From Candidatus Levybacteria bacterium RIFCSPHIGHO2_02_FULL_40_18 (lineage in GTDB: Bacteria; Patescibacteriota; Microgenomatia; Levybacterales; GWA1-39-11), in the NCBI GenBank assembly GCA_001782235.1, contig MFOC01000004.1, positions 115,328-179,327 of the forward strand: a stretch of DNA of 64,000 nt, given 5' to 3'. The notes beneath the pieces were generated by a model. The model made no database searches. It saw nothing but the letters and a program-made list of their open reading frames with translations, and was not told the origin of the DNA. Positions 5,994-61,874 of this stretch are shown here, piece after piece. The translations under genes and the position numbers were made by a program. Positions within the stretch are counted from its first letter, which is position 1; every line of letters starts with the position of its first letter.

Positions 5994-6053
5994 GAATTTA
6001 GATATTAGATATTAGATATTAGATATTAGATATTAGATATTAGATATTAGAAT
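5994..6053. repeat. tandem 7-bp microsatellite (GATATTA)n, about 8 copies
   Basis: gatattagatattagatattag... read directly. Intergenic, between cysS and a minus-strand gene. Confidence 0.85.
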
Positions 6054-7934: not shown

Positions 7935-8017
7935 TACATAGATAATAGTGACTAGATACTAGCTACTAGGGATTTGTTCTATCTATTATCTAATATCTAT
8001 TATCTAACATCTAAAAT

Positions 8018-10168: not shown

Positions 10169-10212
10169 ATCAAAAGTATCAAAAGTATCAAGAGTATCAA
10201 AGGGGCATCAAG
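10169..10212. repeat. tandem imperfect 9-bp repeat (ATCAAAAGT / ATCAAGAGT / ATCAAAGGG)
   Basis: Read directly between the two kinase genes. The gtatcaaaag word recurs at 26590-26700. Confidence 0.6.
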
Positions 10213-20594: not shown

Positions 20595-21371
20595 ATGTTA
20601 ACACCCGATGTTTTGTTCGAGGATTCCGATATTTTAGTAATTGAAAAGCCGGCCGGATTTATTGTCAATCGAGCAGACACCACAGTTAATCAACCAACAG
20701 TGCAAGAATGGGCAGAAGAAATATTAAATATTAAATATAAAAGAGCAAATAGGAAGGAGGGTTCGGAATTCGTAAAGAGGGGTGGAGTAGTGCATCGGTT
20801 GGATAAGGAGACGTCGGGGATTTTAATTATCGCGAAAAATGAGGAGAGTTTTGAGAATTTACAACGACAATTCAAAGAGAGTAGAGTGAAAAAAACTTAC
20901 ATTGCGCTTTGTCACGGAGAGATAAAACCTCCAGAAGGGGAAGTAAAAATACCGATTGGTCGCCTGCCATGGAATAGGATGAGGTTTGGAGTATTGCCGC
21001 AGGGCAGAGAAGCCAGAAGTAAGTACAAAGTATTAAGTATTAAGTATTTACCCCGCACCGATGCGGTGCGGGGTTTAGTATCGAATGGAGAGCGTGAACC
21101 TCTTTCGCTGGTCGAAGTTTATCCTGAGACCGGCCGCACGCATCAAATTAGGGTTCACATGCAATACATAGGACATCCGGTATTCGCAGACGAACTATAC
21201 GCCGGCAGAAAAGTTTCGAAACGTGATAGAAAACTTCTCCCGCGCCACTTCCTACACGCCAGCAAAATCTCTTTCATACATCCAAAAACAGGGCGGAGTA
21301 TGGAATTCGAATCAACGCTTCCGCCCGACCTCGAGAACTTTCTTTCCTCATTAAAAACAGTACAACAGTAG
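20595..21371 (+). CDS. rluA: RluA-family 23S rRNA/tRNA pseudouridine synthase (carries an in-frame palindromic insert)
   Basis: Catalytic motif VHRLDKETSGILIIAKN and downstream TGRTHQIRVH. The insert region is SKYKVLSIKYLPRTDAVRGLVS. Confidence 0.8.
   Translation: MLTPDVLFEDSDILVIEKPAGFIVNRADTTVNQPTVQEWAEEILNIKYKRANRKEGSEFVKRGGVVHRLDKETSGILIIAKNEESFENLQRQFKESRVKKTYIALCHGEIKPPEGEVKIPIGRLPWNRMRFGVLPQGREARSKYKVLSIKYLPRTDAVRGLVSNGEREPLSLVEVYPETGRTHQIRVHMQYIGHPVFADELYAGRKVSKRDRKLLPRHFLHASKISFIHPKTGRSMEFESTLPPDLENFLSSLKTVQQ
21046..21078 (+). repeat. in-frame palindromic insertion element in rluA (CCCCGCACCG atg CGGTGCGGGG) flanked by ATTTA / TTTAG
   Basis: Perfect 10-bp inverted arms, read directly, preceded by an (AAGTATT)x3 tandem. 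The arms are related to the CCAGCACCAT/ATGGTGCTGG elements in the pilin genes and recG. Confidence 0.55.
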
Positions 21372-21493
21372 AACTGTAAAAGAGTGAAACAGTATTCGGT
21401 AGGACAGTAATCTTACCGATTTACTGATTACTGATTTACAGCTTTACTGCTTCACCGCTTTACTGATATTGATACTTTTGGTACCCTTAATAT

Positions 21494-26576: not shown

Positions 26577-27576
26577 TAGGGAAGAGTATCACGAGTACCA
26601 CGTGTATCACGAGTATCAAAAGCTTTTTTATTAAATCGATAAGACTTGGTCGTTACAGATTCCCCCGTGACACCACCTTTGATACTTTTGATACCCTTGA
26701 TACCTTTTAGCTAAGTGGAGTAGTGGAGGCTAAAAATAGCAGTTTGAGTTGATTTAGCAATCTAAATTGGTGATAGGGTTTGATACAGTTTAGTATCCTA
26801 TAATTTTGTGGATAAGTTTTTGCGATCGCAAATTCCAAGCGTTAAGAAGGGATCTCTTCCACTCGTTTCACAGCCTTGAGCCAGCCTCGATACTGTACTC
26901 CTTGCGCAGGGCAGACTTTTCACGGTTCGGCTCCCGCAGGCGGGGGCCGCGCTCATTGCAAGCACAGAGAGATGCTTGTACTGAGGGCCAAAGGGCCTAA
27001 ATGAAAAAAAGTCGAAAGGCCCTTTGGTGAGATTCTCTCTCTTGGAAGCGATCTAAAAATGTTTTACGAACTCTTGTTTTTTGAGGCTAGAAATGAACGT
27101 TTGGACCGAAATTACAGTCTAAATTAAAAACATTCTAAGCAGTCGTCCTGAGAGAGCGATAGGCAAATACGACACAGCGTTTAAGCCATAAGAATAATAA
27201 TGCATTTGGTCCCCATACACAATGATACCCACGTTCCTATAATGCACCTATACTCCACGCGTAAGAGAGAGTACGAATACAGCTTATGTCGTACAATAAT
27301 ACTTTTACGACATGGACGAGTAACCTGAGAGCGAGGCTAAACTTTCCCAATTTAGCCTTAAATCCGAAACAAATTCGTTACTTTACCGTTGCGCTTGTCG
27401 AAGGGTTTCTCTATTTTCCTCCCCAAAGAAAATTTATTGCCTCTACCCTACTATAGGCCATTTATGATTTATTATTTACTATTTATTATTTTTACAAAAT
27501 TGTTTCAGCCAAAAGCGGATGGGTCGTTGGCCCGACTTGAGAAGTACAACTAATGGAAAAGAGCTTATGGGCAACA
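26577..27576. other. roughly 1-kb region with no ORF of 60 codons or more; contains multiple perfect 8-10-bp hairpins and copies of intergenic repeats
   Basis: Stems CCAAAGGGCC/GGCCCTTTGG, ATGTCGTA/TACGACAT and AGGCTAAA/TTTAGCCT. Inverted gtatcac/gtatcaaaag ... ctttgatac word repeats at 26590-26700. GC-rich patch 26890-26965. Confidence 0.4.
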
Positions 27577-27834
27577 TCAGTATGTGGTAGAAGTTCTTCG
27601 CTCAATTGCTGTGACTATTACCTTTTTTGTTTCAATGTAGTAGAAGATTCGATAGTCTCCAACTCGTAGGCGATAGCCATCTGTGAGTTTTTTTATGTGC
27701 TTTCCATCCGCGATATGCGGTCTAGTTGTTAGATGTTTTAAAATAGCCTGTTGAACTTTGTTTTGAATTTGTTTGGGGAATTTTCTTAAACTCTTAACTG
27801 CCGATTTTTTGACGAAAACCTTAAACTTTTCCAC
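27577..27834 (-). CDS. relE: type II toxin, RelE/ParE family
   Basis: 85 aa. C-terminal LTDGYRLRVGDYRIFYYIETKKVIVTAIERR is the RelE/ParE fold signature. Overlaps the upstream antitoxin gene. Confidence 0.7.
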   Translation of the reverse strand: MEKFKVFVKKSAVKSLRKFPKQIQNKVQQAILKHLTTRPHIADGKHIKKLTDGYRLRVGDYRIFYYIETKKVIVTAIERRTSTTY

Positions 27835-28123
27835 TTAGCAAGTCTTTTAATGGATAAGAAAGCTCCTTAGCCGTTTGTTTCTTGGATTTTGTCATTATCA
27901 ATTCTTCCCAAAGTGCCTCGTTTTCATCCATAATCGATTGAAAACGATCTGGGGAAATGACTACCGAGAGTTGATCATTATTTTTAACCACTAAAACTAC
28001 TTCGTTTTTGTTACGGACTTGCTCAAAGACTCGTTTAGCGTCGCGTCTTATATCTGTAATGCTTTTTAAAATAGGAAGTTGCATAGTAAGATTATTATAC
28101 AAATTTATATACAAATTTGTCAA
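27821..28123 (-). CDS. type II antitoxin, Phd/YefM family
   Basis: MQLPILKSITDIRRDAKRVFEQVRNKNEVVLVVKNNDQLSVVISPDRFQSIMDENEALWEEL. The likely true start is the internal Met near 28084. Overlaps the toxin start. Confidence 0.65.
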   Translation of the reverse strand: MTNLYINLYNNLTMQLPILKSITDIRRDAKRVFEQVRNKNEVVLVVKNNDQLSVVISPDRFQSIMDENEALWEELIMTKSKKQTAKELSYPLKDLLSGKV

Positions 28124-45874: not shown

Positions 45875-46651
45875 ATGAGTTTATTTTTCTTGAGCCTTTT
45901 TGCTTTTGTTTTTGGTGCCTGCCTTGGGAGTTTTTTGGGTGTTTTAGTAGATCGTGCATCAACTGGGGAACAGGTACTACGCGGTCGGTCGAAATGCGAA
46001 CATTGCCGTAAGGTTCTCGAAACACGCGATCTTATACCTATAGTTTCCTATGTTTTACTCAAAGGCCGATGTCGCCATTGCAATTCAAAAATACCTCTTC
46101 GAGTATTACTGATAGAAGTAACAGGAGGCATGATTGCCTCCGGTCTTTTTTTGTATGCATATTTTACAGGTTTAAATATAATCGAGCTCATATTGCTTCT
46201 TGCGGTGTTCTTCTCGCTTGTTGGGATTTTTTTTGCGGATTTTTCTTACGGAATAATTCCGGATGAGTTTGTCGCTACGATTATTCTTTCAAGTCTATTT
46301 CTGTTAATTTCTTACCCCCAAAATCTTTTTCAAAACCTTATAGTAAATATTATTACTGGCTTTTTAGTATTTTCCTTTTTCCTTGTGATTTTTCTTTTAA
46401 CACGCGGGCGCGGAATGGGGTTTGGAGACGTAAAGCTTTCCTTTGCAATAGGATTATTTCTTGGATTTCCTAAAACTATAGTGGCTTTATATGTCGCATT
46501 CTTGACAGGAATGTTTATATCCATAATACTAGTATTACTGGGCAAAAAGAAATTAAGAGGTGATTCAATTGCTTTTGGGCCCTTTCTGGTCATAGGAGCC
46601 GTAATTGGATATTTTTTCGGAATCCAAATTCTGAACCTATTTTTTAAATGA
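45875..46651 (+). CDS. pilD: prepilin peptidase (A24 family)
   Basis: N-terminal Zn-binding CxxC...CxxC (CEHC...CRHC). Eight TM helices. Catalytic Asp pair region. Confidence 0.8.
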   Translation: MSLFFLSLFAFVFGACLGSFLGVLVDRASTGEQVLRGRSKCEHCRKVLETRDLIPIVSYVLLKGRCRHCNSKIPLRVLLIEVTGGMIASGLFLYAYFTGLNIIELILLLAVFFSLVGIFFADFSYGIIPDEFVATIILSSLFLLISYPQNLFQNLIVNIITGFLVFSFFLVIFLLTRGRGMGFGDVKLSFAIGLFLGFPKTIVALYVAFLTGMFISIILVLLGKKKLRGDSIAFGPFLVIGAVIGYFFGIQILNLFFK

Positions 46652-47211: not shown

Positions 47212-47248
47212 TTTGTATAAAGTATAAAGTATTAAGTATTGTGTATAT

Positions 47249-47770
47249 ATGAAAAAAGAATCCAGAAAGGGGTTTACCCAGCACCATTTTCGCAATTTGA
47301 TAGAATACTGTAAAAATGGTGCTGGGTTTACTCTCGTTGAGCTTTTGGTTGTTATCGTAATTATCTCGGTTCTTGCTGGCCTATTAGTGTCGAATTTTAT
47401 AGGAGTACGCCTGCGTGGCCGCGACGCTCAGAGGAAAAGTGATCTTGCTCAGATACAATCGGCTCTTGAACTCTACCGCGCTGACAACGGCTACTATCCG
47501 GCAACGCTCTACTCAACCGCGTGTCCCACTTCAGGATCATTCTCATATAATTCGATCGTATATATGCGAAAAATTCCGTGTGACCCCCTTCAAAAAACAA
47601 ATTATACATATACGGCCGCTCCGGCTGGTTGTTCGACTGATTGTACAACCTATAGAATCTACGCTTGCCTTGAAAACACCAACGATTCTAACAAAGACGC
47701 CAATGACGGACAGGCAGGGGATCTTTGCACAAGTGCAGGAGTCGTATCCTACACGGTAATAAACCCCTGA
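47249..47770 (+). CDS. type IV pilin-like protein with an extended leader created by an in-frame palindromic insert
   Basis: MKKESRKGFT[QHHFRNLIEYCKNGAGFT]LVELLVVIVIIS. The GFT prepilin site is duplicated around the insert. Confidence 0.7.
   Translation: MKKESRKGFTQHHFRNLIEYCKNGAGFTLVELLVVIVIISVLAGLLVSNFIGVRLRGRDAQRKSDLAQIQSALELYRADNGYYPATLYSTACPTSGSFSYNSIVYMRKIPCDPLQKTNYTYTAAPAGCSTDCTTYRIYACLENTNDSNKDANDGQAGDLCTSAGVVSYTVINP
47272..47331 (+). repeat. in-frame palindromic insertion element (long form), CCAGCACCATTTT...AAAATGGTGCTGG, flanked by GTTTAC direct repeats
   Basis: 13-bp perfect inverted arms with a 22-nt loop. 54 nt including one GTTTAC copy, so frame is preserved. The same element sits in the neighbouring pilin gene. 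Confidence 0.65.
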
Positions 47771-47771
47771 A

Positions 47772-47806
47772 AAATGTCAAATGTCAAATGTCAAATGTCA
47801 AATGTA
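47772..47806 (+). repeat. tandem 7-bp repeat (AATGTCA)x4 spanning the start codon of the pilin gene at 47774
   Basis: atgtcaaatgtcaaatgtcaaatgtcaaatgta places ATG codons in all three frames. Confidence 0.7.
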
Positions 47807-48355
47807 CGGTCAAGAACAGGATTTACCCAGCACCATTTTCGCAATTTGATAGAATACTGTAAAAATGGTGCTGGGTTTACTCTCGTTGAGCTTTTGGTTG
47901 TTTTTTCTCTGATGTCAATCGTCTCAGGTCTTGGATTTGCCTCTTTTATGTCATACTCGAGAAGACAAGTAATTGTCCAGGCGGCTTCAAATTTTAAACA
48001 GACAATAGATCTTGCACGTTTTAATGCTCTCTCGCAGGTTAAGCCTGAAACATGTAGTTCAGGCGACGAGCTTTCAAATTTTAAGGTAAATATTTGCCTT
48101 AATGCAATTTGTCTAAACTCAGGCGTAGATTATGAAATGAATGTTACGTGCGCAGGGCTTGAGCAAGTATATGTTAAAAAAACATTGCCTCAAGGTGTTA
48201 CCTTCTCAAACGTTCCCGGGAACCCGGCGTGCGCAACTTTAACGTTTAATGCCCTTACAGGCGTTGCTCAAGGATTACCCTGTGAGATCTATATTAACGG
48301 ATATGGAAATCAAGTGATATTTTCAGTTGATAGCAATGGTCATGTATCATATTAA
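47774..48355 (+). CDS. type IV pilin-like protein with the same in-frame palindromic insert in its leader
   Basis: MSNVKCQMSNVRSRTGFT[QHHFRNLIEYCKNGAGFT]LVELLVVFSLMS. About 80 nt is identical to 47270-47350. Confidence 0.65.
   Translation: MSNVKCQMSNVRSRTGFTQHHFRNLIEYCKNGAGFTLVELLVVFSLMSIVSGLGFASFMSYSRRQVIVQAASNFKQTIDLARFNALSQVKPETCSSGDELSNFKVNICLNAICLNSGVDYEMNVTCAGLEQVYVKKTLPQGVTFSNVPGNPACATLTFNALTGVAQGLPCEIYINGYGNQVIFSVDSNGHVSY
47821..47880 (+). repeat. in-frame palindromic insertion element (long form), second copy, flanked by ATTTAC / GTTTAC
   Basis: Identical to the copy at 47272-47331 except for the left flank. Confidence 0.65.
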
Positions 48356-54773: not shown

Positions 54774-54852
54774 AAAAATTAATGGTTAGAATAGTTGAAT
54801 AGTTAAAATAGTTCAAAGCTATTTAACTATTTATCCATTCCAGCTATTTGAT

Positions 54853-55157: not shown

Positions 55158-57233
55158 TTAGTCTTTGGAGATCTTAGGGAGACTTATTTCTTCGACTTTT
55201 TGTTTGAGGGTTGGGTATTTGGAGAGTTTGTCAAACAATTGTTCGGCCGAGGTTCGAGCTCGTTCGATTGTGGAAAGGTCGGACAAAGATGCGATTTTAA
55301 GATCCGGAATTCCGTGCTGGGCAGTGCCAAACATGTCACCCGGGCCGCGAAGTTTCAAATCAATTTCTGCAAGCTCAGGGCCATTATCAATAGTTTGCAA
55401 ATATGAAAGTCGCTTGCGAGTTTTATCGCTTGTCGCATCGGTAAACCCAGCACCATGATGGTGCTGGGTAAACAGAAAACAATACGACTCCTTCTCTCCC
55501 CTTCCTACTCTACCTCTCAATTGATGAAGCTGTGCAAGGCCGAATCTTTCTGCTGCCTCAACTATCATAATATCTGCAGTCGGAATGTCGATTCCAACCT
55601 CAATCACAGGAGTTGCAACCAAGATATTAATCGAACCATCCCTGAATTTTTTGATGACCGAACTTTTTTCGGCCGATTTTAATTTTCCGTGAAGAAGTCC
55701 AAGTCTAAAATTTGGGAAGACTTCTTTTTTCAAACGTTCAAATTCTTCTTTTGCAGCTTTTACCGTGGTTAAAGTTTCCGACGGTTCAATAAATGGACAT
55801 ACAATAAATACTTGGCTTTTTTCTTTTCTAATTTTGTCAGAAATCCACCCATAACCCTTTTCTCTTTTTTCTTCAGGGACCACCCATGTTTTAATCTTTT
55901 GTCGTCCTTTTGGCATTTCGTCCAAAACCGATAAGGAAAGATCCGAATAAATTGTTAAAAAGATTGTTCGAGGAATTGGCGTTGCGGTCATCGACAATAG
56001 ATGTGGGTTAGTTCCCTTTTCGCGCAAGATAGCTCGCTGCTCCACTCCGAATCTCTGTTGTTCGTCAATTACTACCAGTCCCAGATTGTCGAATTTTGCT
56101 CGATTATGAATTAGAGCATGAGTGCCAATTGCTATATCGAAGTTTGGCTGTTGGCTTTTGGCTTTTGGCTTTTGGCTTGAAGTGAAAAGATCCACCTTAA
56201 CTCCAAAAGGTTCGAGAATACTTTGAATAGTATCGAAGTGCTGGTTGGCAAGGATTTCTGTCGGCGCCATAAACGCAGTTTGATAGCCGTTTAAAAAAGC
56301 AACATATGCCGCAATTGCCGCAACCACAGTTTTCCCCGATCCAACGTCTCCCTCAAGAAGTCTGTTCATGGGAATACTTTTCGAAAGATCCTCGAAAATT
56401 TCGTTTGCTGCTCTTTTTTGTGAGGATGTTAATTCGAATGGAAGGCTCTTAATGAGTTCTGCAACTTTTGCGCCGTGCTTTTCAATTTCAAAAGGAATTG
56501 CCTTTCCTCTTTTCTCCCACTCTTTTTTTCTGATAAGCGCTGCCGTGTGTTTTATCAACAATTCATCAAATGAAAGCCTGGCTCTTGCATATTCCGCTTC
56601 TTCAAAGGTCTTTGGGAAGTGGATGGTTCGAATAGCGGTTGGGAGATCTATTAAATTATTTTCTGACCGAATGTTTTCTGGGAGATATTCGGATATGCGG
56701 ATATTTTCAAGCAAACTTTTAATTCGGTTCCTGATCCATTTTGAGAAAAGCCCGCGGGTTTCAGAATAAACCGGAACAAGACCGGTTGTATGAATTGCCT
56801 CCGCATCTTTATTCGAAAGAACTTCGTAAGAGCGAACACTTAATGTTTTTTTACTGCCGAATTTCTCTACCCTTCCTGCAAAAGAGACAAATTCACCTTT
56901 TCGAATATTCGATAAAATGAATTTTTGATTAAAAAAGATCGCATCTATTTTCCCGGTGTCATCTTGGACAGTGATTTTTTGAATTGTAAGGGCTCGCCCT
57001 GAGGAGCGAAGTGACGAATGGGTAAAAATATTTGTGGCTGAAACAACCTTGCCTTGAACGGTCACCTGCTCCCCGAATTGAAGGATTCCAATTTTCGAGA
57101 CATGATAATTCTCATAGCGAAAAGGAATATAGAGCAAAAAATCCTCAACCGTCTCTAGGCCGACTTTTAATAATACCGCCCTCTTCATTCTGAAAGTCGG
57201 CCCAAGTAAAGCAAGCGGAGTCTTCAAATCCAT
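55158..57233 (-). CDS. recG: ATP-dependent DNA helicase RecG (carries an in-frame palindromic insert and a 7-mer coding tandem)
   Basis: Wedge domain, Walker A GDVGSGKTVVA, DEQQRFGV motif II. Unusual segments LFTQHHHGAGFTD and SQKPKAKSQQPN. Confidence 0.85.
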   Translation of the reverse strand: MDLKTPLALLGPTFRMKRAVLLKVGLETVEDFLLYIPFRYENYHVSKIGILQFGEQVTVQGKVVSATNIFTHSSLRSSGRALTIQKITVQDDTGKIDAIFFNQKFILSNIRKGEFVSFAGRVEKFGSKKTLSVRSYEVLSNKDAEAIHTTGLVPVYSETRGLFSKWIRNRIKSLLENIRISEYLPENIRSENNLIDLPTAIRTIHFPKTFEEAEYARARLSFDELLIKHTAALIRKKEWEKRGKAIPFEIEKHGAKVAELIKSLPFELTSSQKRAANEIFEDLSKSIPMNRLLEGDVGSGKTVVAAIAAYVAFLNGYQTAFMAPTEILANQHFDTIQSILEPFGVKVDLFTSSQKPKAKSQQPNFDIAIGTHALIHNRAKFDNLGLVVIDEQQRFGVEQRAILREKGTNPHLLSMTATPIPRTIFLTIYSDLSLSVLDEMPKGRQKIKTWVVPEEKREKGYGWISDKIRKEKSQVFIVCPFIEPSETLTTVKAAKEEFERLKKEVFPNFRLGLLHGKLKSAEKSSVIKKFRDGSINILVATPVIEVGIDIPTADIMIVEAAERFGLAQLHQLRGRVGRGEKESYCFLFTQHHHGAGFTDATSDKTRKRLSYLQTIDNGPELAEIDLKLRGPGDMFGTAQHGIPDLKIASLSDLSTIERARTSAEQLFDKLSKYPTLKQKVEEISLPKISKD
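55441..55473 (-). repeat. in-frame palindromic insertion element (short form) in recG: CCAGCACCAT g ATGGTGCTGG flanked by GTAAAC (GTTTAC on the coding strand)
   Basis: 10-bp perfect arms. 27 nt including one flank, adding QHHHGAGFT to RecG. Same arms and same flanking hexamer as the pilin copies. Confidence 0.65.
56149..56176. repeat. tandem 7-bp repeat (TGGCTTT)x4 inside the recG coding sequence
   Basis: ttggcttttggcttttggcttttggctt read directly. It encodes a Lys/Ala/Gln/Pro low-complexity stretch. Confidence 0.6.
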
Positions 57234-61056: not shown

Positions 61057-61830
61057 AAACACCTTCGGGGTGTCTCTCGATGGCACCTGACGTTTTATTT
61101 AAACCCAACCACTTTCATAGTCTAATAGGAGATGTTTTATTTGGTCAATTTTTTTTGCGTAATCAATATGATCTAGAACAAACTGTTTATAGCTATTTTT
61201 TGTTTCGAATTGATCAAGGATGACTTCCTTTTGACAAACCTCGTTATTAATAGAATTAATATATTCTGGATAGGACGACCATCTATATGTTTCCAAGTTT
61301 TTTGTTACAAAACCGATTAACGGATTTAAATGAATGTAACGTCCAAGATGAAGAAGTTGTTCGTTTGATTCGACATGAACTGCTTTAAAATCTCCCTGGA
61401 GAATTGGTCCTACTCTATTATTTTTGATATTAAAGTATTTAGTATAGCTATTGCTTATTTTACTGATGAATTCCGAGATTCCCCCATCCGTTACTTGTTT
61501 TAATAGGAAATGGAAATGATTTGGCATAAAACAGTAAGAAATAATATCGACAATTTTTTTAGATGAATCTAATTCATAAGTTTCTGATGTAAACTTTGAG
61601 AATCGTGGTTTTTGATCATCAATTTGATAATAAAGGACGCATTTAAGAAATCTATTATAATCATAGAAATTATTAAAAATTCTCATCTTTGCGACACCGC
61701 GGTTGAATATGTGGTAGTATTCTCCGGTTGCAAGTGGTACTTTTCTTGAGGCCATATTCTAAATAAAGCAAATAATACGCCGGGTGTCAACGGTAAACAC
61801 CTTCGGGGTGTCTTACGATTGCACCCGCAG
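61057..61830 (-). mobile_element. IS200/IS605-like unit: Y1 HUH transposase gene flanked by about 35-bp direct repeats, each with an ACACC-TTCGG-GGTGT hairpin
   Basis: Left copy 61057-61092 (aaacaccttcggggtgtctctcgatggcacctgacg). Right copy 61794-61830 (taaacaccttcggggtgtcttacgattgcacccgcag). About 775 bp in total. Confidence 0.5.
61099..61755 (-). CDS. Y1 HUH-family transposase (IS200/IS605 TnpA / REP-associated tyrosine transposase-like)
   Basis: YHIFNRG N-terminal motif, HUH motif MPNHFHFLL, C-terminal Tyr region RYIHLNP. 218 aa. Confidence 0.65.
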   Translation of the reverse strand: MASRKVPLATGEYYHIFNRGVAKMRIFNNFYDYNRFLKCVLYYQIDDQKPRFSKFTSETYELDSSKKIVDIISYCFMPNHFHFLLKQVTDGGISEFISKISNSYTKYFNIKNNRVGPILQGDFKAVHVESNEQLLHLGRYIHLNPLIGFVTKNLETYRWSSYPEYINSINNEVCQKEVILDQFETKNSYKQFVLDHIDYAKKIDQIKHLLLDYESGWV

Positions 61831-61874
61831 ATTTTGGATAGAGTTTATATGTTGAGTTTGCTGTAGAATTTAGG

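What the first reader, a model, noticed from the sequence alone, without database searches (positions are those of the whole stretch)
47272..47880. Palindromic elements inserted in frame into coding genes, flanked by (G/A)TTTA(C) direct repeats
Four loci carry an inverted-repeat element of the form CCC(A/C)GCACC...GGTGC(T/G)GGG. Two tandem pilin genes (47272-47331 and 47821-47880) have the long form: 13-bp arms plus a 22-nt loop, 54 nt including one flank. recG (55441-55473, minus strand) has the short form: CCAGCACCAT g ATGGTGCTGG, 27 nt. rluA (21046-21078) has a diverged short form: CCCCGCACCG atg CGGTGCGGGG. Each copy is a multiple of 3 nt, so it adds residues (QHHFRNLIEYCKNGAGFT or QHHHGAGFT) without breaking the frame. 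On the coding strand each is bracketed by the same GTTTAC direct repeat (ATTTAC/GTTTAG in rluA), which looks like a target-site duplication or a fixed target. In the pilins the insert duplicates the G|FT prepilin cleavage site and lengthens the leader peptide. This resembles in-frame Rickettsia palindromic elements or IS200/IS605-derived palindromic elements that insert next to TTAC. I am not aware of a comparable family described for this kind of genome. A Y1 transposase gene lies 6 kb away.
Basis: seen in the sequence. Interest (0 to 1): 0.8.

Follow-up and report, generated by a model that had tools for sequence, protein, structure and literature searches.

The report
Tiny in-frame palindromic mobile elements
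Four short DNA palindromes sitting in frame inside two pilin genes, recG and an rluA-like gene are gene-less copies of a very small mobile element of Patescibacteria; its full form carries only an ~85-residue GIY-YIG nuclease gene, often written as the "leader" of a pilin, and no such element turned up in the literature searched.

Summary
The window (Candidatus Levybacteria, Rifle aquifer) holds four perfect palindromes, CCC(A/C)GCACC…GGTGC(T/G)GGG. Each is flanked by a direct TTTA repeat, and all four are read through in frame.

The Y1/IS200-IS605 reading is not supported. The Y1 gene has different flanking repeats, and no Y1 homologue lies near any of about 130 related elements.

In related Patescibacteria loci the same arms are the terminal inverted repeats of an element of roughly 0.3-0.4 kb. 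Its only ORF is an 81-100-residue GIY-YIG nuclease. The window copies are MITE-like derivatives without that gene.

TTTA is a true 4-bp target duplication:
- The closest RecG orthologue (84% identity) has an empty site with one GTTCAC.
- A filled orthologue has TTCA on both sides; the window has TTTA on both sides.

The minimal element is 23 + 4 = 27 nt, so it is in frame by construction. Of 20 intragenic non-pilin insertions, 18 are multiples of three.

The element strongly favours the G|FT codons of type IV pilin genes. There the right arm plus the duplication re-encode GAG|FT.

Among the best 149 GIY-YIG representatives, 89 are 150 aa or longer with the GIY-YIG domain N-terminal in nearly all; 81 of these carry a prepilin cleavage motif after it.

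The closest known system is Ssn/SRM (2025). TIR plus TSD, in-frame tolerance and pilin-leader fusion were not found described.

The parts
47273..47276 (+). Left copy of the 4-bp target duplication (TTTA), pilin A. It lies within the codons G-F-T of the original leader MKKESRKGFT.
   Evidence: by analogy with the recG empty and filled sites
47277..47326 (+). Long solo element in pilin A: arms CCCAGCACCATTTT / AAAATGGTGCTGGG with a 22-nt loop. Translated as (T)QHHFRNLIEYCKNGAG.
   Evidence: D4/I1; ssDNA hairpin -16.4 kcal/mol, z -6.4
47327..47330 (+). Right copy of the TTTA duplication, pilin A. Together with the right arm it encodes GAG|FT, the functional prepilin cleavage site.
   Evidence: N_methyl motif at residues 22-46
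47822..47879 (+). Pilin B: TTTA (47822-47825), an identical 50-nt element (47826-47875) and TTTA (47876-47879). The 80 nt at 47823-47902 are 100% identical to 47274-47353 in pilin A. The genes are about 50% identical outside this tract.
   Evidence: (D4)
55442..55472 (-). recG: TTTA, a minimal 23-nt element CCCAGCACCAT-C-ATGGTGCTGGG (55446-55468) and TTTA. It adds QHHHGAGFT between helicase motif VI and the C-terminal domain.
21047..21077 (+). rluA-like pseudouridine synthase gene: TTTA, a minimal 23-nt element of the C/G variant CCCCGCACCG-ATG-CGGTGCGGGG (21051-21073) and TTTA. It lies in a loop of the PseudoU_synth_2 domain.
47249..47770 (+). Host gene: type IV pilin A, 173 aa. It is 100% identical to a protein of Candidatus Levybacteria bacterium RIFCSPHIGHO2_02_FULL_4x.
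47774..48355 (+). Host gene: type IV pilin-like protein B, 193 aa.
55158..57233 (-). Host gene: recG, 691 aa. The closest orthologue is 682 aa, which is 691 minus 9.
20595..21371 (+). Host gene: RluA-family pseudouridine synthase, 258 aa.
45875..46651 (+). Prepilin peptidase PilD (A24). This is the enzyme inferred to remove the lengthened leaders.

Best explanation
The four palindromes are gene-less, MITE-like copies of a family of very small mobile elements that is widespread in Patescibacteria (CPR).

The autonomous form is roughly 0.3-0.4 kb (my estimate from the loci). It consists of a 9-15-bp terminal inverted repeat CCC(A/C)GCACC(AY)TTT, a single ORF for an 81-100-residue single-domain GIY-YIG nuclease, and the complementary repeat. 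Insertion duplicates 4 bp of target, usually TTTA and more generally T-N-N-A.

Loss of the ORF leaves the two repeats as a hairpin-forming palindrome. The smallest version is 23 nt, and with the 4-bp duplication it adds exactly 27 nt, or 9 codons. Intragenic copies therefore do not shift the frame, and copies in permissive loops survive, as in recG and rluA.

The preferred home is the sequence GGN-TTT-AC that encodes the G|FT prepilin cleavage site. There the right repeat plus the duplication spell (K)SGAG|FT. A working cleavage site is rebuilt directly in front of the mature pilin, and the extra residues are discarded with the leader by PilD.

Shown here: the anatomy, the target duplication, presence/absence among orthologues, the in-frame bias, and the physical link to GIY-YIG genes and to pilins.

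Inferred: the GIY-YIG protein is the mobilising nuclease. By analogy with Ssn nucleases it probably recognises the hairpin in single-stranded DNA and cuts beside it, with host repair or recombination completing the copying. Also inferred: PilD removes the long leaders. The window copies may be inactive relics, since no GIY-YIG gene lies in these 64 kb.
For: 1. Family and flanks. The metagenome scan fixed only TTAC on the left. Among 133 non-redundant elements the free right flank is TTTA in 75, against about 4 expected by my estimate from base composition.

2. Co-varying repeats in unconstrained hits: TCAA/TCAA (L082), TATA/TATA (L110), TTGA/TTGA (L264), TAAA/TAAA (L190).

3. Empty versus filled recG sites. 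P0121 (84% identity) reads TTCTT-GTTCAC-TGATG. P0122 reads TTCAC|23 nt|GTTCAC. The window reads TTTAC|23 nt|GTTTAC.

4. Autonomous copies in which the same arms bracket a GIY-YIG ORF: L212, L241, L247 (inside an RHS 'RFTGHELDEE' motif), L253, L264, L190 and L231. TIR variants differ between lineages.

5. A GIY-YIG HMM finds about nine genes next to palindromes in the loci held, whereas no Y1 homologue is adjacent to one.

6. The GIY-YIG protein is a confident GIY-YIG fold (pLDDT 95). Its best structural matches are UPF0213, Slx1 and I-TevI. Residues Y16, R26, H30 and E62 are invariant and Y5 is nearly so.

7. In-frame bias. Of 20 intragenic non-pilin insertions, 18 are multiples of 3 and are read through. 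About 50% of non-genic copies are multiples of 3.

8. Pilin link.
- 2 of 5 prepilin sites in the window are occupied, against 2 of about 190 other TTTAC sites.
- 19 of the 133 elements sit at G|FT LIE sites.
- 3 of 4 further GIY-YIG genes looked up lie directly upstream of pilin genes in T4P clusters.
- Of the best 149 representatives for GIY-YIG, 89 are 150 aa or longer, with GIY-YIG at about residues 1-81 in nearly all. Of these, 81 carry a G-F-T-x-x-E signal right after it, and 67 have xAG at positions -3 to -1. Pfam confirms GIY-YIG plus N_methyl.

9. Tandem pile-ups of 2-3 elements at one pilin TTTA site (L141, L212, L174, L233) show repeated insertion.
Against: - No GIY-YIG gene lies in the 64-kb window. 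The rest of the source genome could not be searched.
- A hydrolytic single-domain GIY-YIG nuclease has no known strand-transfer chemistry, so how a 4-bp duplication arises is unexplained.
- Three autonomous copies (L241, L253, L231) lack a clean duplication.
- The pilin enrichment could owe much to survivorship, because insertions there are harmless, rather than to target choice.
- W, P0122 and P0123 share the recG insert while the closer P0121 lacks it. This needs either precise loss, recurrent insertion at one site, or recombination.
- The in-frame statistics come from loci chosen by a sequence pattern.
Confidence: 0.72

Rival explanations
1. IS200/IS605-type palindrome-associated element or REP, mobilised by the Y1 (HUH, RAYT-like) transposase encoded at 61099-61755. 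It would insert 3' of TTAC in single-stranded DNA without a target duplication.
For: - A Y1_Tnp/RAYT-like gene is present: Pfam E = 1.8e-6 and NCBIfam REP_Tyr_transpos E = 1.4e-10, below the curated cutoff.
- The target ends in TTAC, as for IS608 (my background knowledge).
- The hairpins next to the Y1 gene are also followed by TTTAC or TTTTAG.
Against: - The Y1 gene is flanked by a different 40-nt direct repeat. Its hairpin (ACACC/GGTGT) is weak and folds no better than shuffles.
- No Y1 homologue is adjacent to any related palindrome in the loci held; the single hit was a weak partial match about 900 nt from an element.
- The elements have symmetric perfect TIRs.
- The flanking 4-mer changes on both sides together: TTCA, TCAA, TATA, TTGA.
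- There is no GTAG head.
Confidence: 0.05
2. An ordinary MITE moved in trans by a classical (DDE-type) transposase that was not seen. The GIY-YIG gene would be a passenger, or a homing endonuclease that secondarily colonised the MITE or the pilin site.
For: - TIR plus short TSD with a T..A target is the classical signature of DDE cut-and-paste elements (my background knowledge).
- GIY-YIG enzymes are not known to catalyse strand transfer (my background knowledge).
- In L259 the GIY-YIG gene lies outside the palindrome.
Against: - In at least 7 independent autonomous copies the GIY-YIG ORF is the only gene between the TIRs.
- The TIR sequence varies with the GIY-YIG lineage: CCCAGCACCAC, CCCCGCACCC, CCCCGCCC, CCCCGCACCTTCT.
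- I did not notice a transposase gene next to the elements in the loci I inspected; this was not searched systematically.
- The GIY-YIG family was seen almost only in Patescibacteria-type contigs, and many of the related elements also lie in Patescibacteria loci.
Confidence: 0.15
3. Not mobile. The hairpin would be a host-encoded functional signal that recurs by selection rather than by transposition, for example a regulatory RNA/DNA structure, a recombination or uptake signal for pilin variation, or a terminator.
For: - Stable hairpins.
- The two pilin genes share an 80-nt identical tract that could serve gene conversion between pilin paralogues.
- In Neisseria, Ssn-bound hairpins modulate transformation (PMC11893778).
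Against: - The same element sits inside unrelated genes: recG, rluA, an integrase, an RHS gene, and even another element's GIY-YIG gene.
- It occurs in both orientations.
- It shows presence/absence among close orthologues and carries a target duplication.
- No Rfam family matches.
Confidence: 0.05

Closest known systems
Ssn nucleases and their Ssn-related motifs (SRM, e.g. Neisseria NTS/dRS3); Chenal et al., Nat Commun 2025 (PMC11893778)
   Same: - A single-domain GIY-YIG protein of about 90 residues.
- Its gene is physically tied to a short, hairpin-forming, multi-copy repeat with non-palindromic flanks.
- The authors noted that the repeat-gene-repeat layout looks like an insertion sequence.
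- The family is enriched in host-dependent bacteria.
   Different: - The published SRM consensus (HGTCWY…) finds none of the window copies.
- Here the gene lies between the two halves of one palindrome (TIRs), not between two complete hairpins.
- There is a 4-bp target duplication.
- Copies are common inside genes and in frame, whereas NTS copies are 2% intragenic in N. meningitidis.
- The nuclease ORF is frequently fused to a pilin.
- The paper's main text mentions neither CPR or Patescibacteria nor in-frame insertion; its only mentions of pilin are in cited references.
- Membership of the cd10448 clade could not be tested.
Rickettsia palindromic elements (RPE)
   Same: Short palindromic repeats inserted in frame into protein-coding genes and tolerated as extra peptide segments (my background knowledge). 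Rickettsia is listed among SRM-rich genera in PMC11893778.
   Different: RPEs are about 100-150 bp, with no TTTA duplication or defined partner gene known to me. No sequence similarity was tested. The host lineage is different.
MITEs (miniature inverted-repeat transposable elements)
   Same: - TIRs and a short target duplication.
- No coding capacity.
- Autonomous relatives share the same ends.
- Many insertion sites, with presence/absence polymorphism.
   Different: - The autonomous partner encodes a GIY-YIG nuclease, not a DDE transposase.
- The elements are far smaller than typical MITEs (23-50 nt).
- The minimal size plus TSD equals 9 codons.
IS200/IS605 family, PATEs and REP/RAYT
   Same: Hairpin DNA, and a preference for a T-rich tetranucleotide ending in TTAC. 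A RAYT-like gene is present in the window.
   Different: - Perfect symmetric TIRs.
- A true target duplication.
- No adjacent Y1 gene.
- No GTAG head.
Homing endonuclease genes in introns or inteins, and free-standing GIY-YIG HEGs
   Same: - A selfish nuclease gene lodged at a highly conserved coding sequence.
- An arrangement that leaves the host protein functional.
- A short identical tract around the element in two paralogues resembles co-conversion.
   Different: - There is no intron and no intein.
- The removal step would be proteolysis of the pilin leader by prepilin peptidase (inferred).
- The elements also reach unrelated TTTA sites and leave gene-less palindromes.

Membership tests
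IS200/IS605-derived PATE / REP-RAYT | Associated Y1 (HUH) transposase whose gene is flanked by the same hairpins | tested here: not met
   The window Y1 gene is flanked by a different repeat. phmmer of Y1 against all six-frame ORFs of the palindrome loci gave only one weak partial hit, not adjacent to an element.
IS200/IS605-derived PATE / REP-RAYT | No target-site duplication; different left and right subterminal hairpins (REPs: a GTAG head) | tested here: not met
   Perfect TIRs. The 4-bp repeat co-varies on both sides, and the empty site holds one copy.
IS200/IS605-derived PATE / REP-RAYT | Insertion next to a fixed tetra- or pentanucleotide (TTAC for IS608) | tested here: inconclusive
   The target is TTTA, often followed by C, but TTCA, TCAA, TATA, TTGA and TAAA also occur.
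Ssn / SRM system | Single-domain GIY-YIG protein of about 90-100 residues | tested here: met
   81-100 aa, Pfam PF01541 only. GIY-YIG fold with pLDDT 95 and matches to UPF0213, Slx1 and I-TevI.
Ssn / SRM system | Gene flanked by its own hairpin-forming repeat, which is multi-copy in the genome | tested here: met
   The arms flank the gene in L212, L241, L247, L253, L264, L190 and L231. Solo hairpins lie nearby and elsewhere. The geometry differs: half-sites rather than whole hairpins.
Ssn / SRM system | Repeat matches the published SRM consensus HGTCWYN(0-2)YYVSBRHN(0-5)WNVSBRGN(0-2)RNCYNB | tested here: not met
   0 matches in the window and 0 in the four elements with flanks.
Ssn / SRM system | Protein belongs to CDD clade cd10448 | not testable with these tools
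   CDD is not available, and no Ssn structure is in the PDB copy. The nearest solved sequence is UPF0213 BH0048 at E = 0.017.
Ssn / SRM system | Site-specific cleavage of single-stranded DNA beside the hairpin, with no activity on dsDNA or RNA | not testable with these tools
   Requires biochemistry.
MITE | Terminal inverted repeats plus target-site duplication, with no ORF | tested here: met
MITE | Autonomous element with the same ends exists | tested here: met
MITE | The autonomous partner encodes a DDE-type transposase | tested here: not met
   The only ORF between the TIRs is GIY-YIG.
Homing endonuclease gene | Resides in a self-splicing intron or intein, or is free-standing with a long specific target in a conserved gene | tested here: inconclusive
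   There are no intron or intein features. The pilin G|FT site is strongly preferred, but other TTTA sites are used too.

The most novel reading that the evidence does not exclude
The autonomous element would be a new kind of prokaryotic mobile element: a unit of roughly 0.3-0.4 kb bounded by TIRs and a 4-bp TSD, whose only product is a GIY-YIG nuclease. It would have specialised on the prepilin cleavage-site codons. Its ORF reads through its own right inverted repeat (…KSGAG|FT) into the pilin. The selfish nuclease would thus be made as the N-terminal 'leader' of a highly expressed pilin and released in the cytoplasm by prepilin peptidase. This would be a proteolytic counterpart of the intron/intein trick. 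The 23-50-nt in-frame palindromes would be its gene-less progeny.
Probability: 0.4. Interest if true: 0.9.

Novelty: new variant of a known kind. Interest (0 to 1): 0.8.

Why it matters
1. It would add a nuclease class (GIY-YIG) to the enzymes that define bacterial TIR/TSD-bounded mobile elements. At roughly 0.3-0.4 kb the element would be among the smallest autonomous ones I know of, and it would turn the loose 'looks like an IS' remark made for Ssn/NTS into a testable case.

2. It explains a recurrent annotation oddity in CPR genomes. These are pilins with very long or GIY-YIG-bearing N-termini, and 9-residue QHH…GAGFT / PAP…GVY / LPSTT… inserts in housekeeping proteins.

3. Type IV pili are central to the episymbiotic lifestyle and competence of Patescibacteria. 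A selfish element that lives in their leader sequences, and possibly acts on single-stranded DNA, may affect pilin expression, paralogue conversion and DNA uptake.

4. A small hairpin-specific nuclease with a simple TTTA-hairpin site could be useful as an ssDNA tool, as proposed for Ssn.

Tried and rejected
- **Y1/RAYT link.** Examined the gene, its flanks and their folding, and searched for homologues near related palindromes. Rejected.
- **Rfam scan of the window.** Only a tRNA was found, so no known RNA family explains the hairpins.
- **First genome-collection scan.** The flank-free pattern was swamped by high-GC terminator-like hairpins (Streptomyces and others). Only the low-GC hits were informative. 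Corynebacterium hits (GGTTAC flanks) were judged unrelated.
- **First regular expression for the GIY-YIG C-terminus.** It was mis-spaced and found nothing. Corrected.
- **Published SRM motif.** No matches.
- **Supplementary data of the Ssn paper.** Not held, so the N. meningitidis SsnA sequence could not be compared.
- **AFDB fold search.** Unavailable. PDB was used instead.
- **Integron attC site.** Considered and rejected. The flanks are direct repeats, not the inverse core sites, and the match of L016 to an integrase gene is simply another host gene.
- **Transposon-excision footprints (P-nucleotides).** Considered and rejected, because the palindrome sequence is conserved across sites and phyla.
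- **Literature searches.** Searches for GIY-YIG with pilin, palindrome, TIR or CPR found no description of this element.
Full report
**1. Observation**

Four perfect palindromes of the form CCC(A/C)GCACC…GGTGC(T/G)GGG occur in the 64-kb window.

- Two identical long copies lie in tandem type IV pilin genes, at 47277-47326 and 47826-47875. Each has 14-bp arms and a 22-nt loop.
- One minimal 23-nt copy lies in recG (55446-55468, minus strand).
- One minimal copy of the C/G variant lies in an RluA-family pseudouridine synthase gene (21051-21073).
- Each is bracketed by a direct TTTA repeat.
- Element plus one TTTA measures 54, 54, 27 and 27 nt, and every host ORF reads through.

Chance does not explain this. 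The pattern search that matched the two short copies had no hit in 100 shuffles of the window. As single-stranded DNA the copies fold 6 standard deviations better than shuffles. No further copies or half-sites with TTTA flanks exist in the window.

The window comes from Candidatus Levybacteria bacterium RIFCSPHIGHO2_02_FULL_4x. Pilin A is 100% identical to a protein of that MAG, and the context is the same in 24 Rifle contigs.

**2. The inserts are lineage-specific insertions**

RecG of T. maritima and E. coli has a gap exactly at 'tqhhhgagf'.

Among Patescibacteria RecG orthologues the pattern is mixed:
- The closest one (P0121, 84% identity, 682 aa against 691 aa) lacks the nine residues.
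- Two others (79% and 77% identity) have them.
- More than 30 further orthologues lack them.

At the DNA level:
- The empty site reads …TTCTT-GTTCAC-TGATG….
- The filled site of P0122 reads …TTATTCAC|CCAGCACCATCGCGGTGCTGG|GTTCAC|TGAT….
- The window reads …CTGTTTAC|CCAGCACCATCATGGTGCTGG|GTTTAC|CGAT….

The empty site therefore holds one copy of the 4-mer and each filled site holds two. The 4-mer follows the local codon usage (TTC or TTT for Phe) on both sides. This is the signature of a true 4-bp target duplication, and 23 + 4 = 27.

The RluA-like insert is likewise absent from solved relatives. Of the 120 closest homologues of pilin A that were listed, my pattern flagged only 3 element-derived leaders, two of them the window's own N-terminus, and one more looked element-derived by eye. 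The closest homologues have ordinary leaders.

**3. A large family**

A flank-free scan of one genome per species returned mostly unrelated high-GC terminators. It also returned Patescibacteria, Nitrospirota and Ratteibacteria hits with the same flanks.

A metagenome scan fixed only TTAC on the left. It gave 120 loci, and together with the genome-scan loci and the window these yield 133 non-redundant elements.
- The free right flank is TTTA in 75 of them, where I estimate about 4 from base composition.
- Most of the rest differ from TTTA at one position.

Hits that were not constrained in the flank show the repeat changing on both sides together: TCAA (L082), TATA (L110), TTGA (L264) and TAAA (L190).

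The commonest total sizes are 27, 30 and 31 nt.

I also classed elements as intragenic by their flanks alone, requiring at least 70 open codons on each side in any frame.
- After removing high-GC chance hits and the pilin fusions, 18 of the 20 remaining are multiples of three and are read through.
- About half of the non-genic copies are multiples of three.

Part of it follows from the size of the minimal element, and part from selection.

**4. The partner gene is GIY-YIG, not Y1**

The Y1 gene at 61099-61755 is RAYT-like. It sits between its own 40-nt direct repeats, whose small hairpin is different and not significantly stable. Its protein has no homologue adjacent to any related palindrome; the one hit was a weak partial match about 900 nt from an element.

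While translating pilin-site elements I found that the frame upstream often reads …PW.L.YYEAY..E.LAR.REKRLK.NGNAIRELKKR. This is the C-terminus of a GIY-YIG protein. An HMM of these proteins finds about nine such genes next to palindromes and none in the window.

Looking up further homologues gave clean autonomous copies:
- L212: pilin leader ATGAAAAAAGGCTTCA | CCCAGCACCATTTTT - GIY-YIG ORF - AAAAATGGTGCTGGG | TTTA.
- L247: inserted in the RFTGHELDEE motif of an RHS gene.
- L264: TTGA duplication, arms CCCCGCACCC.
- L253 and L241.
- L231: arms CCCCGCCC.
- L190: arms CCCCGCACCTTCT, TAAA duplication. A second, solo element is inserted into the GTTTAT codons of its GIY-YIG gene.

The palindrome arms are thus the terminal inverted repeats of an element of roughly 0.3-0.4 kb (my estimate) whose only ORF is the nuclease. 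The window copies are what remains when the ORF is lost.

The protein is 81-100 residues with the Pfam GIY-YIG domain only.
- Residues Y16, R26, H30 and E62 are invariant and Y5 is nearly invariant.
- The model is confident (pLDDT 95).
- It superposes on UPF0213, the Slx1 nuclease domain (TM 0.73, rmsd 1.4 Å) and I-TevI.

**5. Pilins as the preferred home**

In the window 2 of 5 prepilin sites are occupied, against 2 of about 190 other TTTAC sites. Of the 133 elements, 19 lie exactly at G|FT-L-I-E. Three of four further GIY-YIG genes looked up lie directly upstream of a pilin gene in a T4P cluster.

The right arm plus the duplication reads AAA AGT GGT GCT GGG TTT AC, which encodes K S G A G F T. 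Every insertion therefore rebuilds a cleavage site in front of the mature pilin.

Where the total is not a multiple of three, the pilin frame is still open upstream. This happens in one of three ways:
- through a new ATG that overlaps the GIY-YIG stop codon (ATGA; L118, L141);
- through an ATG inside the loop (L259, L260);
- most often, because the GIY-YIG ORF runs without a stop through the palindrome into the pilin.

A search of 1.84 billion representative proteins shows that this is common:
- 6085 hits at E ≤ 1e-3 and 488 at E ≤ 1e-10.
- Of the best 149, 89 are 150 aa or longer, with GIY-YIG at about residues 1-81 in nearly all.
- 81 of these have a G-F-T-x-x-E signal right after it (median position 96).
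- 67 have xAG at positions -3 to -1.

Pfam confirms GIY-YIG plus N_methyl in three examples.

Tandem arrays of two or three elements at one pilin TTTA site show repeated hits at the regenerated target (L141, L174, L212, L233).

In the window, pilin A and pilin B are 100% identical over 80 nt, covering the element and the following 26 nt. They are about 50% identical outside that tract. This suggests copying of the element with some flank between paralogues.

**6. Mechanism**

Shown: TIRs, a 4-bp duplication, autonomous and gene-less forms, polymorphism among orthologues, the in-frame bias, and the link to GIY-YIG and to pilins.

Inferred: the nuclease mobilises the element. The best precedent is the Ssn family (PMC11893778). 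Its members are single-domain GIY-YIG proteins that bind their cognate hairpin in single-stranded DNA and cut just upstream, and their genes are flanked by those hairpins. By analogy the enzyme here would recognise the stem formed by the two arms and cut at the TTTA borders. Host replication or repair would complete the copying.

How a hydrolytic nuclease yields a 4-bp duplication is open. A classical transposase acting in trans therefore cannot be excluded. I give that rival 0.15.

That PilD removes the lengthened or GIY-YIG-bearing leader is also inferred. A PilD gene is present at 45875-46651, and the leader stays on the cytoplasmic side, so a folded N-terminal domain need not be translocated (established T4P biology, from my own knowledge).

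**7. Comparison with what is known**

*Works like.* It resembles a MITE and its autonomous partner, Rickettsia palindromic elements (in-frame tolerance), and a homing endonuclease that avoids harming its host gene.

*Membership.*
- It fails the IS200/IS605/REP tests: no Y1 partner, symmetric ends, and a target duplication.
- It meets two structural Ssn/SRM criteria but not the published SRM consensus.
- Clade membership (cd10448) and ssDNA specificity could not be tested.
- It meets the MITE criteria except that the partner enzyme is not a DDE transposase.

Full-text searches found no description of this element, of GIY-YIG genes bounded by TIR and TSD in bacteria, or of GIY-YIG::pilin fusions. 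That library is incomplete.

**8. Verdict**

I class it as a new variant of a known kind (Ssn-like GIY-YIG/hairpin systems; MITEs). A substantial chance remains that the autonomous element is a new class of mobile element with a new way of sparing its host gene.

Confidence in the structural account is about 0.7, and in the mechanistic steps about 0.4-0.5. Interest is 0.8.

Noticed in passing
window 61057-61834: The RAYT-like Y1 gene (61099-61755, minus strand) is bracketed by two direct 40-nt repeats (61057-61096 and 61795-61834, 83% identical). Each contains a small hairpin ACACC…GGTGT followed by TTTAC or TTTTAG. This may be a separate, single-copy REP/RAYT-type unit.
   Followed up: partly
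window, many intergenic spacers (e.g. 5998-6051, 7980-8014, 10169-10201, 21413-21467, 26584-26707, 47215-47239, 47772-47805, 54781-54813): Many intergenic spacers carry their own short tandem repeat of 7-9 nt, with a different unit at each place. Some units recur in inverted orientation at distant spacers (I3-I17). The function is unknown.
   Followed up: no
window 47772-47805, 21020-21048, 56143-56178: Heptamer tandem repeats also lie inside ORFs. AAATGTC x4.9 encodes MSNVKCQMSNVKC at the start of pilin B. TAAGTAT x4 lies just 5' of the rluA palindrome. TTTGGCT x5 lies inside recG.
   Followed up: no
window 27577-28123 (minus strand): A ParE-toxin / Phd-YefM-antitoxin pair sits in an otherwise gene-poor stretch (26.7-28.2 kb).
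   Followed up: partly
L190 (minus strand, about 690-960); L141, L212, L174, L233: Nested and tandem insertions occur. One solo element is inserted into the GTTTAT codons of another element's GIY-YIG gene. Arrays of 2-3 elements, some with degenerate right arms, pile up at a single pilin TTTA site.
   Followed up: yes
L247 2480-2830: An autonomous GIY-YIG element is inserted at the R-F-T codons of the conserved RHS motif RFTGHELDEETDL. This splits an RHS toxin cassette in a Komeilibacteria genome. The same arrangement is seen in 6 contigs from different samples.
   Followed up: partly
P0391-P0417 (pilin homologues): Several related pilins have long called N-termini that begin MYHEYM… or MYYKYM…. 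This may reflect translated upstream repeats or remnants of the GIY-YIG start (MYYVY…). Not analysed.
   Followed up: no
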